Made by a program: the position numbers and the translations under genes. A model generated the notes under the pieces. The model was not told where the DNA came from. It saw only the letters and a list, made by a program, of their open reading frames with translations, and searched no databases. Shown piece by piece: positions 7,090 through 20,194 of a DNA stretch of 64,000 nucleotides; the stretch's first letter is position 1; each line of letters starts with the position of its first letter. The stretch is from Octopus vulgaris (Eukaryota), in assembly GCA_951406725.2 (NCBI GenBank), contig OX597820.1, positions 63,488,001 through 63,552,000 on the forward strand, read 5' to 3'.

Positions 7090-8000
7090 AACGATTCAAA
7101 GTCTTACAGCTGTTTCTGGGATATCCCAGAGTTTGGGATATTCCATCCTCGGAGACATATAGAGAAATTGAGAAAGTTATAGTTTAATGAAATGACGACA
7201 TAGAGGATAGGAGTAAAGGAATAAAAGAAGTAAAAAGAAGCATAAAATTTACAGTTCAAATTTCCGATCATGTAGAATTAAGTCCGCAAGTCCTTAGGTG
7301 CAATCCTGCATAAGTGCATATAGGTTAAAGTCCTGATAGTGTAAATATCCAGAAAAAAGACGCGGACACATCAACGTACAATAACAGAATGGTAGCAGAA
7401 GTGGCTATTAAGTGGTAAAAAGAAAGACTAATAAAGAAATATATAGAAAAAGAGGTAGATAGAGTGAGGGAGGAAGTTAAGGATTGGCGTTAAGGATAGA
7501 ATAACGTATTTAAAAATATATTGTCTAAGTATATAGTGTACAAAGATTTCTAAGAAATTAACAGAATGGAGGAGGAGGTAAATGAGGATAACGTAAAAAA
7601 AACATAAAATTAACAAAATAGAGCAAAATGAAAAGAATTTAAAGTTAATAGTAGGTGCCACGGGTATTCTTCTAGTTTATAGGGGTTGGGGACGAAATCT
7701 AGTAGTAAATGCTTGTATCCGTTCTGGCTAAGGTCAGAGGTTGTAGATTCATATTTAGCAATGGGGTTATAAGTGTGTAGGCAGAGATGAATGGAGGAGA
7801 GACTAGTTGAATGTTAAATTATTTAGGTGTAGGAGTTAGAATTAAATATAAGATTTATTGGGTTAAGGTTTAAAAATAAATTAACACATTAATATATACC
7901 TTATAAAGTGATGTGGTAAGGTTGATAGAAGAGATATAGGGTATGTGCTAATTATAATGGTGGTTTGTATGTTGGTGTTGTTCGAGGGTGTTACATGTGT
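7090..8000 (-). mobile_element. Penelope-like element 3' part (decayed GIY-YIG region plus HHR-bearing terminus)
   Basis: Minus-strand echoes of the PLE endonuclease (KVYI, STSLSS, YNL*) lead to a clear HHR at 7101-7156. Confidence 0.5.
7101..7156 (-). ncRNA. Type I hammerhead ribozyme (CCGAGGA core)
   Basis: GUCU-CCGAGGA-UGGAAUAUCCCA AACUC UGGGAUAUCCCA-GAAAC AGCU GUA^AGAC. Stem I has 4 bp, stem II pairs 11 of 12, and stem III is the palindrome ACAGCUGU. Confidence 0.8.
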
Positions 8001-8099
8001 GTTATTCTTTGATATAACGATAGGCTCAGCCGACTCCTCTCGGGTCACAGATCTAGTTGAACTGTGTCTCCTTCAGCTTCACACACAATTACCCCACAT

Positions 8100-9010
8100 C
8101 AAATGAGATTTATATAGAGATGATGCACTTTTAATTGCTACTAGCCTAACAAAATCTGAATTAGATAAACTTGAAAGCCCCTACATAAATACTTCGCCAA
8201 CCTATCTAACACTTTTGAAAAGTCTTAGAGAAAGAAAATGTTCTAGGTGTTACATTAGATTTAAACTTTTCACTATCCTTGCCGTATCATGAATCCAATC
8301 AATACGTTAAGTATATCAACACTGAATCTAGCCACCATAAATCTACTTTCGAGTGCATAATCTAAGACATATGCATCAGAATATCCGATCTATCCGCTAC
8401 TAAGGAAATCCTCAGTAATTACGCCAATTATTACAACCATGCTCTAGCTCCTAGAGGTTTCTTCCAGAAGCTTAGATTTATACCCAACTTAAGGAACACC
8501 TCTCGAAACTTAACCATAGACAAACGCACACCAATAGTGGAAAGCCAAACCCTCCTACTACGATCAAACAATATCGCCCACCTAAGCAACCACACACATA
8601 ACGTTCGATCTATGAATACTAATACTAATACTAAACCTTGCAACTCTCTTCTAACTAGGAATTACACCGCCCCAAACTTGCCTAATGAAAGAGGCGGGGT
8701 ATCTATTCTCTGGTATACACCCCCATTCTCTTTACACTTTAACAGCCTCACTAAAGCTTTCGTTAAAATAGTACAATCTAATTTCCAATGTAACCACAAG
8801 TAGCATTCTCTCTTTAACAGATCCACTTTTAAATTATCCTATTCCTCTACTCAAAATACAGAATTTGTTACCACCTCATCTAACAAACGTAACCTTGGCT
8901 CTTACTATCTAAATGCATACAATCCTACCATAGACCCACAAAAGGAAAATACTAACACCGCTCACAATAAAATATCAAGTAGCCCGGGCCCTACCACTTT
9001 AAATAACTTA
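8100..9010 (+). mobile_element. Penelope-like element RT/thumb remnant
   Basis: LYRDDALLI (PLE YRDD motif), YINTESSHHKST, SDLSATKEILSNYANYYNHALAPRGF and ILWYTPPFSL (cf. IIWFNPPFS). Disrupted. Confidence 0.8.
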
Positions 9011-9294
9011 AACGTAAATAATATAGGCCCCCACTTCAGAGGGTAACAGACGCACAGCTGAAGCCGCTGCAAACATTAATAGGCACACTGATACTAACAA
9101 TACTAAGATTATAAATACTGCAACTAATAATGCCTATACAACAACCAGTAATAGGTCTAGCAATAATACTGATACTAGCACCAACGGCAATATTACCAAT
9201 AATGCTATTACTGCCAGTGCTGCTGCTACTGCTACCACTGCGGCGGTTGTTGCTGCTGTTACTACTACTACTGCTACTAGTAGTAGTAGTAGTA

Positions 9295-9357
<63 letters not shown>

Positions 9358-9408
9358 TTCGTCTTGTATGTTGATTGTGTTCATTCATTATAAATCTTGA
9401 ATTATGCT

Positions 9409-9469
9409 TGCACTGATGAGTAAAGAGTGCACACCACTGCGCTGATTACGAGATCACAGGCGATCTGTA
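9409..9469 (+). ncRNA. Type I hammerhead motif, probably inactivated (GAAA>GAGA)
   Basis: UGCA-CUGAUGA-GUAA..AGUGCA..UGCGCU..UUAC-GAGAUC ACAGGC GAUC^UGUA. It lies in a short element (about 9360-9600) that ends in (TA)n. Confidence 0.6.
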
Positions 9470-9600
9470 CCTGAACTCTGCTTTTAAGTGACTTGTTTCA
9501 AGAGTTGCATTCGGTACAATATGTTTTTTTTATTTTAGTAATTTTGACTTTAAGAGTCCCTCCTAGCGTGTGGCATTTATGTGTAATAATGTCCTCATTA

Positions 9601-9659
<59 letters not shown>

Positions 9660-9705
9660 CATATGTATATATATGTATATGTATACATATATATATATAT
9701 GTATA

Positions 9706-9770
<65 letters not shown>

Positions 9771-9887
9771 AATCATTACATGATGCGCTAAAGGACAAAT
9801 ATAAGGAAATCTAGGAGCACATGTATAAACTCCGCTTGTGAAGTGTATACACAGCAATGTTAGCGTACAGCATAATTTTATAAGAGA

Positions 9888-10258
9888 CTAGCAGTATCGC
9901 CCGGCGTTGCTCGGGTTTGTAAGGGAAATAACTATAAAGCATTTCTAGAGAGTTATAGCCAAAAAATGGGAAAAAAATGATGGTAAAATTTTTTTTAGTT
10001 AAAAAGGTCGAGTTGCGTCCCCCAGACAGTCTGTGGTTTGTGTTTCTGATTCTCGACCCCATGTCGAATTTATCGATTTTTTTTAGAACTGGGGGAACTT
10101 TTCAAAATTTTCGCTGCGTTAGTTTTGAATTATGACATTGGGCTATGTGTGTGTCAAGTTTCATCAGAATCGGTTGAAAGCCGTGGTCACGGTGAGGGTA
10201 CAACCTAACAGACACACAGAAACACACACAGACAAACTGCCGTTTATATATAGAGAGA
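9888..10258 (-). mobile_element. Non-autonomous Helitron
   Basis: The minus strand starts A|TC, has a (CTGT/GT) tract near the 5' end and a subterminal hairpin CCCGAGCAACGCCGGG, and ends CTAG|T. There is no TSD. Confidence 0.85.
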
Positions 10259-10393
10259 TGAACAGTACAAAATAGAAGTGGAAATAACAAAGAGAATAAA
10301 TAAATAACAGAGCTGTTTAAAAATGTTCATTTCTACATTAGCTGTAGCAGCGCATTATATAACACTAATAACTATTAGTATATTGTTGTATAG

Positions 10394-10449
<56 letters not shown>

Positions 10450-10471
10450 GCTCATTCCAAGAGTTGAGGAA

Positions 10472-10503
<32 letters not shown>

Positions 10504-11466
10504 AGAGAGAGAATATACTCTTACATGTATTTTATACTCATTTACTACAAATAGTAATTTTGATATATCATGTTTGTGAGCAATATTTAAAGTATCTAAT
10601 AAAATGGGAACATAAATAAACCGATATTTTGTAGGCAATTAGTAATTTGGCAAATGATATAGATATTTTACTGAAAACATGAAAAATAAAATACGAAATT
10701 ATTAATGCCATATAATACAACGAAGCAGATAATATCAAAGTTCAGCAGAATGCTGATAATAACAAACGCTAATACTAATCAGTAATTGTCGATATAAGAT
10801 CAGTCAGTTAAATTAGAATAATTGATTAAGTTTGAACAATTGATTAAATATATATAAGTATGATGGCCTGAGCGAATGTAGCAATACTGGGTTATAATAA
10901 TGATGATATATCGATGTAAAAAAAATAAAATTTAATAATGTTATGTATATCATAATCATTTGTAAATAGACTATTGTTAATGTCATATGTACTTGAGAAA
11001 AGATATATGTGTATATATGGTTACGATAGAAATATGAACATACTTAGGGGAATATAATACAAAAGAGTAAGATCAGCTGCCAGGTATAATCAAATTGTTG
11101 ATGAATAAAGTTAAATTAAAGTAACAATGGGGAGTTACTACTTGTAAACCCTATTTTAATTTTATTATATAAAACCATTATGATTCTTAATACGTCTAAG
11201 TAGATTTAACCAAGTATTTACATTTACTTGTATTAATATCAGAATTTGTTAGAATCGAACAAGCTACTGTTCATACAGACACTACCATATACCATCTTAA
11301 TCACAACTATAACAATGAATTGTGTTGTGTATTAAAACCACGAAATTTCATGCTTGCATTGAAAGGCGTTTTTATATCTTCATTACTTAATGTACTTCGA
11401 TTTGCCCTTAAAATCTCAAGGGCTTCACGAGTACATAATTAACAATTTTTCTTGTTTAGTTTAACT

Positions 11467-11713
11467 CAGTGGTTTTCAAAGTGAACGGTATTGCTACTCT
11501 GGAGGCGGCGGAAAGAAAATTGGAGCCGTTAACGAGGTGGCCAAAAACAATCAAATAATAGGTTAATTTGGTGAAGTTTTATTTATGAAATACAGTTATT
11601 TTGAATTTGATGCAGAAAGTGGTCTACATTTGTGGTGGTAAGTGGGTAGCGTGATAGGAATGTGGGCCGGGTACGAAGTGGGTGGCATCCCTTAAAAAAT
11701 TTGAGTACCACTG
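11467..11713. mobile_element. hAT (Charlie-like) MITE
   Basis: TIRs CAGTGGTTTTCAAA / TTTGAGTACCACTG. An 8-bp TSD is only partly recognisable. Confidence 0.7.
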
Positions 11714-11886
11714 GTTTTGTTGTATACAAAATGTACCGTTTCTTGATACAGTCTATGCCTTAGGTTCTAGATCAATATGTTTTGCAAGCGAGGTTGAGTA
11801 ATAAAGTTATGAGTTAGAAAAATGAATGACGGTGCATATAAACGCATTTCTTGAAACAGAGGCTGTGAACACCATGTAATATATTT

Positions 11887-12113
11887 CTTTACTACCCACA
11901 AGGGACTAAACACAGAGGAGACAAACAAGGACAGAAAAACGGATTAAATCGACTATATCAACCCCAGTGTGTAACTGGTACTTATTTAATCGACCCCGAA
12001 AGGATGAAAGGCAAAGTCGACCTCAGCGGAATTTGAACTCAGAACGTAACGGCAGACGAAATACGGCTACGCATTTCGCCCGACGTGCTAACGTTGCTGC
12101 CAGCTCGCCGCCC
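11887..12113 (-). mobile_element. tRNA-derived SINE, family A (Meta-like central domain)
   Basis: Head GGCGGCGAGCTGGCAG..GAGTTCAAATTCC, then GTCGACTTTGCCTTTCATCCTTTCGGGGTCGAT. Several other copies lie in the window. Confidence 0.85.
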
Positions 12114-12589
12114 TTAACCCCATGTAATATATGTCAGCATATCCTTCGATTACGCTGCATTAGTAAACAATGTTTTTACTCACATATGTGCCATTTAACT
12201 TACACCTACCCACTATCCTTCGGTCAGATTCACAATTATATTCGCACTTTATTAATTATGATTGGTAGAGGAAGTGACTTCATTAATAATGATTCATTAT
12301 CTAATTACGTATTTCTGAGACTTGAACATATTTCGAACATTTAAGCAAAATATTTGTCCGCATATTTAATGTTTTTACATTACATAATAACAAATAGTAA
12401 ACGAACTCTGAATTACACTGGTTATTTTATCATCCGATTACAATGTATTTGTTGAAAGTGATAAGGCCATCTTCCAAATAACATATCGTACCACTAAGAG
12501 TGTACTGATAAACTTATATACGGCTTCAGATCCCTAGCCTGTGTTTGATAGTATGTTATTAGTAATGTATAGTTTCCAATCATTAGATT

Positions 12590-12820
12590 GGCTAGTTCTA
12601 GCAAGCCTTGCTACCCTAGACGGATGACGAGCAAGACTCAGGAATATGCATGTCTCTAGGTGCAGGCTCTAGCTAGTGGGGATGCTTGTCTCCCGTTCGC
12701 AAATATATGGACACAGGAAATGTGTCAAAGCCGAGAGGAAGCGTCGATGCTTCCTACGGCTAAATAGCGGTGCTGTGATACCCTTTACGGGACTGTCAGG
12801 TTAAGTTGACAGTATACAAC

Positions 12821-12823
<3 letters not shown>
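12590..12823 (+). mobile_element. Diverged single-unit relative of the 360-bp retrozyme-like element
   Basis: 12690-12764 aligns with the reverse complement of 4221-4295. A decayed HHR sits at the equivalent position, and the element ends in (TA)n. Confidence 0.7.
12615..12660 (+). ncRNA. Decayed type I hammerhead motif
   Basis: CCUAGA-CGGAUGA-CGAG CAAGA CUCA-GGAAUAUGCAUGUC^UCUAGG. Stem I is a perfect 6 bp and stem III is near-palindromic. There are two core substitutions (U4G, A13G). Confidence 0.6.
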
Positions 12824-12860
<37 letters not shown>

Positions 12861-13397
12861 CACCAATACAGGCACATGCACACATTTTTATACATACTGA
12901 ATTTCCGTTTCAATTTATTATTTGTATAGAATATATGAAATGCTCTTTTTTTTGTTTTTATGATTCTAAATCTATCAAATTACAATGGTATTTTTTTTCC
13001 TAATACGCAGAAAATTTGTCGTTTTACGTTTAGATTTGTAAAATTCTTAATAAATTATTCACAAATTTTTCTGTAGATATTTACATGACTGAGCAACATT
13101 TGTGAGGAGAGGTTTTGCGTGTAATAGTAAAGTGATGGATAGAGATTTCTAGATTAAAGCACTGAGAAATAGATACGGTGCAAGTGAAGCGATAGGTGAG
13201 AAAAGCTCCAATCAAGTTTGATGACAGCTGAAGATAAGCATTGACAAAGAACCAAAAATTACAGGTAGGGTAAAACGAGAAAGGGTGAGTGGTGACAGGC
13301 AAGAAGTAGAAGGTAAATAGAAAGGAAATAATGAGAAAGGAGGCGAAACTAAATTCGTGCACAATTGTCTAGAAATGTAAATGCTACATAATCGTGC

Positions 13398-18866: not shown

Positions 18867-18899
18867 ATGTATATATGTATATATATATATATATATATA

Positions 18900-19705
18900 T
18901 TCTTGTAAATTTGGTACGACTCTACACTCTGTCTGTCTCTCTCTCTTACATTTACTTCGCATTCTTCGTTGATCTGTCCCCTTCTCTCTCTCTTCTCTCT
19001 ACTCATCCTCCTTTTCTCTTGCCTCTGATTCTGTGGTCTACTCTTCCCCTACCCTTCCATTTCATTGTCTTGCTTTGCACTCACAGGTCAATCTTTGACA
19101 CCCATCCCGTCTCCCCTCTCTAATTCCTTCTTTCTCTCTCTTCTCCCCCCTTGTTGCTTTCGTCCCTCTTCTCTCTCTCTTCCTTCCTTTGCCTCCCTTT
19201 CTTTTCTTTTCTTTTCTCTCTTCTCCGTCACGTGACTGCTGGCCAAAATCTGCCTTTCGGCCTCTGACCAGCGCCGTGACAACATCGTTGTCCTTGTTCG
19301 CCGTTAAGGCAATTTTTCCAAAATACGCCAGCCAAACTTGTTTGCACTGTTATTAGTCGTAAGACACCTGCTGTTTTTACCATTATTGCTTTTGTATTTC
19401 ATTATTGTTTTTTTGTTTTTTATATTCGTGTGGCACCGTCCGTTTTGCTGTCCCTGTGTTCGTATGCATTCGATCCTTCTTCCAGAAAATCTACGCTCCT
19501 AGCTTAGTTTTTCTAATGCTTGTTGCTTAGTTTTTCCTGAAGGGCTGGCCGGATCTAGTAATCTCAAGATTAATCAGCCGAAATTACTACGATGATCCGG
19601 TTCTTGACTGAAGACTGAGGGCTTCGAATGTCCTGTCTGTGTTTATTGTATCGTCTTCTAAGTGTTATGCGTTCTTGTCACAGTTTGTATTTTTCTACAT
19701 ATCAT
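18900..19705 (+). mobile_element. Interspersed element between (TA)n tracts carrying a permuted hammerhead
   Basis: (TA)n lies on both sides. The 5' part is pyrimidine-rich and the 3' part is structured. The PLE affinity is an inference. Confidence 0.5.
19543..19614 (+). ncRNA. Putative strand-scrambled, pseudoknotted hammerhead ribozyme
   Basis: All core nucleotides are present (CUGAAGA 19608-14, GAAA 19580-83, AUC 19561-63), with four fully paired helices in a non-standard strand order. Confidence 0.6.
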
Positions 19706-19706
19706 A

Positions 19707-19776
<70 letters not shown>

Positions 19777-20194
19777 GTATGTACAAATATGAATGCATAG
19801 ATCTCGACCCATAACTATTTCCCTAATTTTAATTTGATTACTCTCATTAATGTACGCTGGCTGGTATCTTGTTCGATCCGTTGTTCCTTCTCTTCCTATT
19901 GACTTCCATTGACCTGCAGATGTTAGTCTGAGAGACTGCCTGATGTATTACTACCATTTACGTCTCTCCACTTCTCTGTTGCTTTAAATAAATTGTTAAA
20001 CTCAAGTGGACATTACTGTTTTATGTAAGTTGAAAACCATAAAAACAAAAATGATAACAAATCATAAAAATTAAAGATGGAGTCTATAACAGCAGTTCAT
20101 GTAAAATACAACACAATCGCTTCAAATACAAACTGTATAAAATGTATTGATATATTTTTAGATTCTCCACTTCTCTCTTGTTTTAATGATATAT

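What the first reader, a model, noticed from the sequence alone, without database searches (positions are those of the whole stretch)
19543..19614. Strand-scrambled, pseudoknotted hammerhead that fits none of types I, II or III
SEEN, 5' to 3': GGCUGG(19543-48) CCGGAUC(49-55) UAGUAAU-C-UCAAGA(56-69) UUAA UCAGCC-GAAA-UUACUA(74-89) CGAU GAUCCGG(94-600) U UCUUGA-CUGAAGA(602-614). Stem III is 19583-89/19556-62 (7 bp) with an AUC triplet. Stem I is 19564-69/19602-07 (6 bp), directly before CUGAAGA. Stem II is 19574-79/19543-48 (6 bp, G10.1-C11.1), directly before GAAA. An extra 7-bp helix pairs 19549-55 with 19594-600. Every conserved core base is in register, but the strand order is IIa, IIIb-UH-Ia, IIb-GAAA-IIIa, Ib-CUGANGA, with the chain open between A9 and G10.1. 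KNOWN: types I-III are circular permutations that keep the cyclic strand order, and stems I and II lie side by side in the active fold. INFERENCE: the short linker could join the tips of stems I and II while the extra helix braces the fold. This would be a topology that standard HHR descriptors miss. Four fully paired helices plus the core in 72 nt is unlikely by chance, though I did not compute this.
Basis: partly seen in the sequence, partly recalled or inferred. Interest (0 to 1): 0.85.

Follow-up and report, generated by a model that had tools for sequence, protein, structure and literature searches.

The report
Split-core hammerhead ribozyme in animal retroelements
This repeat encodes a self-cutting hammerhead RNA whose parts come in a scrambled order and whose catalytic core is interrupted by extra helices, a layout I found no description of, present in thousands of copies of animal retroelements whose genomic ends pile up at the predicted cut.

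Summary
The motif sits in a non-coding ~850-bp repeat. Its blocks run S-G-C, the non-circular order published in 2023 (PMC10085705). Unlike those forms, the chain is open inside the core, between A9 and G10.1. Diverged families keep an invariant core while all stems change compensatorily. The same layout lies in the 3' UTR of R2-superfamily (RLE) LINEs, in this genome and in one metagenome assembly. Of 85 insertion 5' ends, 44 fall within -3..+19 of the predicted cut and none in -12..-4, which points to cleavage in vivo. Cleavage was not assayed, and monomer versus dimer action is open. Ten literature searches found no split-core form. Verdict: a new structural variant of the hammerhead, probably active.

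The parts
18897..19714 (+). One solo unit of a non-coding interspersed and tandem repeat (retrozyme-like; unit 843-903 bp in arrays). The ~40-nt linker that joins units in arrays is absent here.
19715..19790 (+). (TA)n/(TATG)n tract at the 3' junction; family copies insert into TA microsatellites
19466..19479 (+). P5, 5' strand (8-bp distal part 19466-73 and 5-bp proximal part 19475-79); closes the two ends of the ribozyme
   Evidence: clear 11-bp form in the metagenome family and a 4+8-bp form in L491
19480..19542 (+). P6 hairpin (arms 19480-89 and 19533-42) ending directly 5' of G10.1. This copy has two mismatches, A19486 and A19540, where other copies mostly have G.
   Evidence: (G at 19540 in 28 of 30 loci)
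19543..19548 (+). Stem II 5' strand, starting at G10.1, detached from CUGANGA
19549..19555 (+). P4 5' strand (equivalent to the stem I-II interaction helix of type SGC)
19556..19569 (+). Block S: stem III 3' strand, AUC triplet, predicted cut between C19563 and U19564, stem I 5' strand
19570..19589 (+). UUAA linker and block G: stem II 3' strand (C11.1 = 19579), GAAA, stem III 5' strand
19594..19600 (+). P4 3' strand
19602..19614 (+). Truncated block C: stem I 3' strand and CUGAAGA (C3-A9), with no stem II strand after it
19615..19631 (+). P5, 3' strand (19617-21 and 19624-31). 19615-16 can pair with 19541-42. An alternative local hairpin is possible.

Best explanation
A functional self-cleaving hammerhead ribozyme of a new architecture, carried by a non-autonomous retroelement. 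The catalytic blocks are in the non-circular order S-G-C. The RNA's 5' and 3' ends leave the core at the A9/G10.1 step, through a closing helix P5 and usually a hairpin P6. These can stack and cross the core strand like a four-way junction, keeping A9 next to G10.1 without a covalent link (inferred). The short linker and P4 tie the tips of stems I and II, as in type SGC. Standard G12/G8 chemistry would cut after C19563 (established hammerhead knowledge, inferred for this RNA). The 3' product starts at U19564 and is reverse-transcribed in trans and inserted in (TA)n, giving the many insertions that start at the cut. Uncut or multimeric RNA gives longer and tandem insertions. SHOWN: the sequence, covariation, copy number, presence in RLE-LINE 3' UTRs, and the pile-up of insertion ends. 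INFERRED: catalysis, the 3D fold, monomer action, and which reverse transcriptase mobilises the window's family (Penelope-like signatures point to a PLE).
For: In 24 of 24 representative copies from many subfamilies, CUGANGA, GAAA, G10.1-C11.1 and A15.1-U16.1 are invariant. Stem columns are paired in 19-24 of 24, with up to 5 pair types per column. On a 13-sequence alignment, 93.3% of cells are paired and 14 of 23 pairs show two-sided changes; 0 of 500 shuffles reach that, and slid controls give 12-47% paired. Stem II covaries with the UPSTREAM strand (cognate -7.9 vs -1.7 kcal/mol across groups), while the strand after CUGANGA gives no signal (-1.0 vs -0.8). P6 scores 14 or more in 14 of 25 copies against 2 of 84 shifted anchors, and mostly ends flush with G10.1. 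Unrelated families repeat the whole layout with different letters: 7 of 122 metagenome and viral loci (4 pass the full descriptor), all from one assembly, with a P5 of up to 11 bp and no gap; and 2 of 8 fetched RLE-LINE 3' ends from this genome. 5' ends of 85 insertions sampled by a downstream anchor: 44 in -3..+19, 6 in -103..-4, 7 in +20..+81, 28 further upstream; 20 in -3..+6 against 0 in -12..-4. A stem-agnostic core pattern in S-G-C order gives 17,565 hits against 981 for the reversed control. The 9/10.1 step tolerates an inserted base in metazoan PLE hammerheads (PMC4209133).
Against: There is no cleavage assay and no RNA-end data. P5 is 5 bp or longer in 18 of 25 copies, but mismatched partners also reach that in 39-71% of trials, so P5 is weakly tested inside the window's group. 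Family C has no P6. Abundant young sublineages carry a U-U mismatch (21 sampled hits) or a bulge (37) in P4, against 22 perfect ones. The window's own copy has two P6 mismatches. A rough distance estimate leaves the window's fully paired monomer about 5 A short, unless one terminal pair frays. The cross-family check of the 5'-end edge is thin: 2 of 7 (C), 1 of 9 (G) and 7 of 13 (D/H, six of them the same loci as). The nested minimum-energy fold forms P4, III, P5 and P6 but not stems I and II. A PLE study found no reads at its hammerhead site and no need for cleavage in vitro (PMC11167929).
Confidence: 0.8

Rival explanations
1. Same ribozyme, but active mainly as a dimer. Each unit folds into a nested rod (P5, P6, P4+III). 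The apical loop of one unit pairs with the free IIa and Ib-CUGANGA strands of another unit, in a tandem transcript or in trans, so multimers are cut and monomers or circles are spared. This is a variant of the best explanation, not its opposite.
For: P4 and III form one nearly continuous helix in the minimum-energy fold. The junction linker is 0 nt on one strand in the window and in L491, which is marginal for a monomer. Units occur in tandem arrays. Metazoan PLE hammerheads are reported to act as dimers (PMC4209133).
Against: One frayed pair removes the strain. Natural SGC ribozymes cleave co-transcriptionally, and a few have a 0-nt link at this place (PMC10085705). Family G has linkers of about 5-9 nt.
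Confidence: 0.25
2. The fold is conserved for another purpose (a protein or reverse-transcriptase binding site, or a stability element). The edge of insertion ends at 19564 comes from a transcription start, a protein nuclease, or a reverse-transcriptase stop helped by TA microhomology.
For: Positions +5 to +9 resemble the TA target and hold many ends. No RNA ends were observed. Cleavage was dispensable for one PLE in vitro.
Against: The edge falls on the predicted bond: 5 ends exactly at 0, and 5 more at 0 once target microhomology is allowed for. The AT-containing 9 nt just upstream hold none. A reverse transcriptase would meet the fold at its 3' side first. Catalytic core bases are invariant while the stems diverge.
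Confidence: 0.12
3. A dead relic: an ordinary SGC or CSG hammerhead whose block C was duplicated and then decayed, frozen in a recently amplified repeat.
For: In the window, the bases before G10.1 and after A9 each look like a damaged block C.
Against: The core-like upstream spelling is a minority variant (2 of 30 loci). An intact block C is absent (1 hit, 1 control hit). The bases after A9 differ freely between families and do not pair with IIb. The split layout persists with compensatory change in families that show no similarity to the window's unit beyond chance.
Confidence: 0.03

Closest known systems
Type-SGC (also CSG, GCS) non-circularly permuted hammerheads, Eckert et al. 2023 (PMC10085705; read parts 1, 3-6 of 8, plus a word search of the supplement)
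   Same: S-G-C block order, a short linker from stem I to stem II, an extra helix joining the other strands of I and II, and a standard core
   Different: There, block C is assumed uninterruptible. Here IIa is detached from CUGANGA, the ends sit in P5 and P6 at A9/G10.1, and the P4-III link is closed on both strands. Those RNAs come from metatranscriptomes and metagenomes plus one bacterial candidate; none is from an animal genome or a retroelement.
Metazoan non-LTR retrozymes (PMC7229834, passages; bioRxiv 10.64898/2026.07.22.740005, parts 1-2 of 5)
   Same: Non-coding tandem and solo repeats with one hammerhead per unit, probably mobilised by Penelope-like elements
   Different: They are defined by a type I hammerhead; the published type I descriptors would miss this one
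Penelope-like element minimal type I hammerheads (PMC4209133, parts 1-2 of 4)
   Same: Position near the 3' end of the unit, an insertion tolerated between 9 and 10.1, possible dimer action, partial-tandem and inverted copies
   Different: Canonical cyclic order, an insertion of one base only, and a short or absent stem III. The two autonomous PLE families inspected in this genome appear, by eye, to carry that ordinary form, not the split one.
Pseudoknot (PK) hammerhead, PDB 8YDC (PMC11300833, parts 1-2 of 6)
   Same: A hammerhead with an extra helix and a pseudoknot
   Different: There the PK helix replaces helix II, the A9-G10.1 backbone is continuous, and the connectivity is pistol-like
HDV-like ribozymes of R2 and other LINEs (PMC13708176, PMC6765202, passages)
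   Same: A self-cleaving RNA inside an RLE-type LINE
   Different: A different ribozyme class, located in the 5' UTR; here a hammerhead lies just after the stop codon, in the 3' UTR

Membership tests
Hammerhead ribozyme | CUGANGA, GAAA and UH core bases in register | tested here: met
   24 of 24 representatives
Hammerhead ribozyme | Stems I, II and III flanking the core, with G10.1-C11.1 and A15.1-U16.1 | tested here: met
Hammerhead ribozyme | Continuous backbone from A9 to G10.1 (at most 1-2 inserted bases) | tested here: not met
Hammerhead ribozyme | Site-specific self-cleavage after H17 | not testable with these tools
   indirect support only: the insertion 5'-end edge
Hammerhead types I/II/III | Cyclic order C-G-S; match to an Rfam hammerhead model | tested here: not met
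   order is S-G-C; no Rfam hit
Type SGC hammerhead | Blocks in order S, G, C with a short Ia-IIb linker | tested here: met
Type SGC hammerhead | Interaction helix between the strand 3' of IIa and the strand 5' of Ib | tested here: met
   P4: 5 of 7 pairs with two-sided changes
Type SGC hammerhead | Intact block C (Ib-CUGANGA-IIa contiguous) | tested here: not met
PK hammerhead | Helix II replaced by a loop-loop pseudoknot with an intact core strand | tested here: not met
Non-LTR retrozyme | Non-coding tandem or solo repeat with one ribozyme per unit | tested here: met
Non-LTR retrozyme | Type I hammerhead | tested here: not met
Non-LTR retrozyme | Expressed as circular RNA | tested here: inconclusive
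   only contigs were available; no informative joints or ends
PLE-mobilised element | Partial-tandem and inverted 5' copies, ~30-40-nt tail, microsatellite target | tested here: met
   L008, L021, L030, L026 (partial tandem), L013 and L312 (inverted), 40-nt linker
PLE-mobilised element | 3' end shared with an identified autonomous partner | tested here: inconclusive
   no similarity to 30 GIY-YIG loci; none seen to RLE-LINE 3' UTRs in the 40 hits printed
RLE-type (R2 superfamily) LINE, for the autonomous carriers | Single ORF with RT, a zinc finger and a C-terminal restriction-like endonuclease | tested here: met
   homolog P0003 (88% identical to the query stretch): PF00078 and PF13966, best solved relative R2; endonuclease motif read by eye
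HERO clade, for the autonomous carriers | Placement in the HERO clade by RT phylogeny | not tested
   label recalled from the C-terminal motif; it comes from no call

The most novel reading that the evidence does not exclude
A widespread, overlooked topology of hammerhead, whose core is assembled across a four-way junction with the RNA's ends inside the core. It is native to the 3' UTRs of an RLE (HERO-like) LINE lineage and has been captured by Penelope-mobilised retrozymes. It may also be the missing ribozyme of elements reported to lack one, such as the Naiad 'half-core' cases in PMC8557442. P5 versus the local 3' hairpin, or dimerisation, acts as a switch that decides when the retroelement RNA is cut.
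Probability: 0.45. Interest if true: 0.93.

Novelty: new variant of a known kind. Interest (0 to 1): 0.86.

Why it matters
It breaks the published rule that the three hammerhead blocks cannot be interrupted, and it moves non-circular RNA permutation from rare metatranscriptomic finds to thousands of copies in an animal genome. It places a hammerhead in LINE 3' UTRs, where only 5' HDV-like ribozymes appear in the passages I read. It also offers a sequence-only way to see ribozyme cleavage in vivo, from the 5' ends of insertions, which bears on the open question of whether retroelement hammerheads cut at all in cells. Standard descriptors and Rfam miss it, so eukaryotic ribozyme counts are probably too low. 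A core position that accepts whole helices is also a ready site for engineering switches.

Tried and rejected
Rfam at gathering thresholds: no hit. Intact-block-C ancestor: 1 hit against 1 control hit, and the hit is unrelated sequence. Stem II partner downstream of A9: no signal. Back-splicing to rejoin A9 and G10.1: no GU donor after A9 (by eye). Autonomous PLE carrying the split form: none at the 3' ends of 30 GIY-YIG loci (the output was cut). The very active ~4.5-kb PLE family has an ordinary minimal type I motif, read by eye in one copy. PLE fragments next to split-form copies in L028, L047 and L105 lie on the opposite strand and were not taken as evidence of linkage. Sequencing runs: no RNA holder listed, contigs only, no molecule ends, and one trivial joint far from the motif; these show only that runs labelled organisms A, B, D and E hold the family. 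Viral contigs: 0 of 3 pattern loci passed, and there is no relative of P0003. The gap in the pattern was mis-set and returned odd copies, which were not used for counts. The P5 cross-partner control is weak. Earlier scan findings: nothing by sequence, by genome or by the first word set. Lünse et al. 2017 could not be read, and the bioRxiv supplements were not seen; both could hold related variants. The metagenome contigs could not be searched beyond their 300-nt flanks.

Full report
1. Observation. All segments are at the stated coordinates. A descriptor for the split layout finds this site alone in the window. In 2822 block-wise dinucleotide shuffles it found 0 sites with every helix of 5 bp or more, and 16 with 4 bp or more. 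Rfam gives no match.

2. Setting. The window lies in a 2.8-Gb, AT-rich, microsatellite-rich genome. It looks like an animal's; my guess of a cephalopod is untested. The motif is about 100 nt from the 3' end of a non-coding repeat unit spanning about 18897-19714. A 161-nt query had 1708 candidates, of which 40 were scored at 97-100% identity. A 16-mer from block G has 1276 exact hits against 1 control hit, many in arrays, with periods of 843-903 bp. Copies are 5'-truncated and sit in (TA)n. Some show partial-tandem or inverted upstream copies joined through a 40-nt linker. These are Penelope-like signatures (PMC8557442 and PMC11167929, passages), so the element works like a non-LTR retrozyme.

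3. The split is conserved. Diverged subfamilies appeared in loci fetched for other reasons and through core-only patterns. I picked 24 representatives by eye as intact-looking copies, leaving out visibly decayed ones such as L357 and L363-L367. In all 24, the core, G10.1-C11.1 and A15.1-U16.1 are unchanged. [quoted passage not shown] Stem II always pairs with the upstream strand; the strand after A9 shows no pairing signal. On a 13-sequence alignment of the alignable group (the inner stem III columns were left out because the aligner shifted them), 14 of 23 pairs have two-sided changes; 0 of 500 shuffles reach this, and slid partners pair in 12-47% of cells against 93%. That test does not correct for relatedness. 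A pattern with only core bases in S-G-C order gave 17,565 hits against 981 for the reversed control. Of the 100 listed rows, 18 are second hits at the same site, and 13 of 23 distinct sites printed were family members by eye. I therefore estimate roughly 8,000-13,000 sites. An intact block C with the window's stems does not exist above chance.

4. The RNA is larger than 72 nt. Folding the flanks with the core held open shows a hairpin, P6, whose 3' end abuts G10.1. It also shows a helix, P5, between the bases after A9 and the bases before P6. P6 scores 14 or more in 14 of 25 copies against 2 of 84 shifted anchors. P5 reaches 5 bp in 18 of 25, but mismatched partners do so in 39-71% of trials, so that control is weak. 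In several G-type copies both gaps are zero, which makes a perfect four-way junction. Family C has P5 only. The window's copy carries two P6 mismatches that are rare elsewhere.

5. Unrelated carriers. Seven of these 122 loci pass stems I and III and four pass the full descriptor; all seven come from one assembly, prefix Ga0224511. That family has different letters in every stem, a P5 of up to 11 bp starting right after A9, and an 8-bp P6. In four of its ten loci the motif follows the end of an ORF. Homologs of that ORF are RT plus zinc-finger proteins with a C-terminal restriction-like motif; the closest named hits are from bivalves, and the best solved relative is R2. The label HERO-like is recalled, not tested. 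In the window's genome this C-terminal domain has 2399 candidates, of which 150 were scored. I fetched the 3' ends of 8: both copies of the young family (ORF up to 1175 aa, some with neighbours about 3.7 kb apart) carry a complete split hammerhead with P4, P5 and P6 just after the stop. None of the six older copies passes the descriptor; they show decayed remnants by eye. The two autonomous PLE families inspected appear to carry ordinary minimal type I motifs instead (by eye). I found no 3' end shared between the window's family and any autonomous element.

6. Evidence of cutting. I anchored a sample on a 17-mer lying 82 nt downstream of the predicted cut (872 hits). Of the first 100 listed places, 90 loci were fetched; those left out were downstream members of arrays, one partner of an inverted pair, and the last two rows. 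Six loci were array-internal units and were skipped, and one locus gave two ends, leaving 85 ends. Relative to U19564: 44 lie in -3..+19, 6 in -103..-4, 7 in +20..+81 and 28 further upstream; 20 lie in -3..+6 and none in -12..-4 (binomial p about 4e-26 and 1e-18 against the two neighbouring stretches, assuming independent insertions). Five ends are exactly at 0, and five of the six scored at -3 are also at 0 once TA microhomology is allowed for. Some far-upstream ends may be alignment breaks. The simplest reading is that the template RNA often began at the hammerhead cut. The check in other families is thin. Public runs gave contigs only and say nothing about expression or ends.

7. Mechanism. 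Blocks S, G and C assemble the normal core. The linker and P4 hold the tips of stems I and II, and P5 and P6 hold A9 next to G10.1, at a step known to accept an extra base (PMC4209133). A rough distance estimate finds the fully paired window monomer about 5 A short, and feasible with one frayed pair; most other families fit without fraying, and L491 is borderline. Dimer action stays a real alternative, because the nested ground-state fold leaves stems I and II open. After the cut, the 3' product is reverse-transcribed in trans; uncut or multimeric RNA gives arrays. Catalysis and the 3D fold are inferred.

8. Comparison and novelty. It works like a type-SGC hammerhead but is not one: block C, which that paper assumes cannot be interrupted, is split, and no RNA in that paper came from an animal genome (PMC10085705). 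It is not the PK hammerhead, and not a type I retrozyme or PLE motif. Ten searches found no split-core form and no hammerhead in HERO elements. The library lacks most subscription papers, and Lünse et al. 2017 was not readable. Craig et al. list eight Naiad 'half-core' cases with GAAA 35-50 nt to either side; whether these are the same thing is untested. Verdict: a new variant of a known kind, probably active, interest 0.86.

Noticed in passing
L491:100-225 and L492:90-215 (G000 C1:157436380-157436860, C10:113824820-113825300): A young RLE-type LINE family with ORFs up to 1175 aa, in places with neighbours about 3.7 kb apart, carries the split hammerhead in its 3' UTR; tandem arrays would be processed as in Penelope-like elements.
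   Followed up: partly
L105:1125-1170; family L207-L236: A very active ~4.5-kb GIY-YIG Penelope-like family (17,483 candidates) has a minimal type I hammerhead-like motif with an A6U change and an extra base between 9 and 10.1 (read by eye in one copy).
   Followed up: partly
L036, L038, L040, L041, L055 (3' ends): Penelope-like copies related to the 781-aa family end in a hammerhead-like motif with a U3-A8 pair in place of C3-G8, as reported for Schistosoma (read by eye).
   Followed up: no
L004, L025, L039, L042, L077, L090, L096, L140, L142, L151: Several other repeat families with ordinary type I hammerheads occur in the same genome.
   Followed up: no
L047:1040-1135: A 5'-truncated unit of split-hammerhead family G is joined without a spacer, in inverted orientation, to a 5'-truncated PLE ORF; this may be a template switch by the PLE reverse transcriptase.
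   Followed up: partly
L051 minus strand ~1640-1740: A single candidate with an intact-block-C S-G-C layout (stems of 7, 6 and 8 bp, with a long linker between blocks G and C); it may be chance.
   Followed up: no
window 19502-19512 and 19525-19535: A short direct repeat in the P6 loop of the window's family; related families have one copy.
   Followed up: no
L432 and L343: Single copies of two other families (the metagenome LINE family and family G) also begin at or within 4 nt of their predicted cut.
   Followed up: partly
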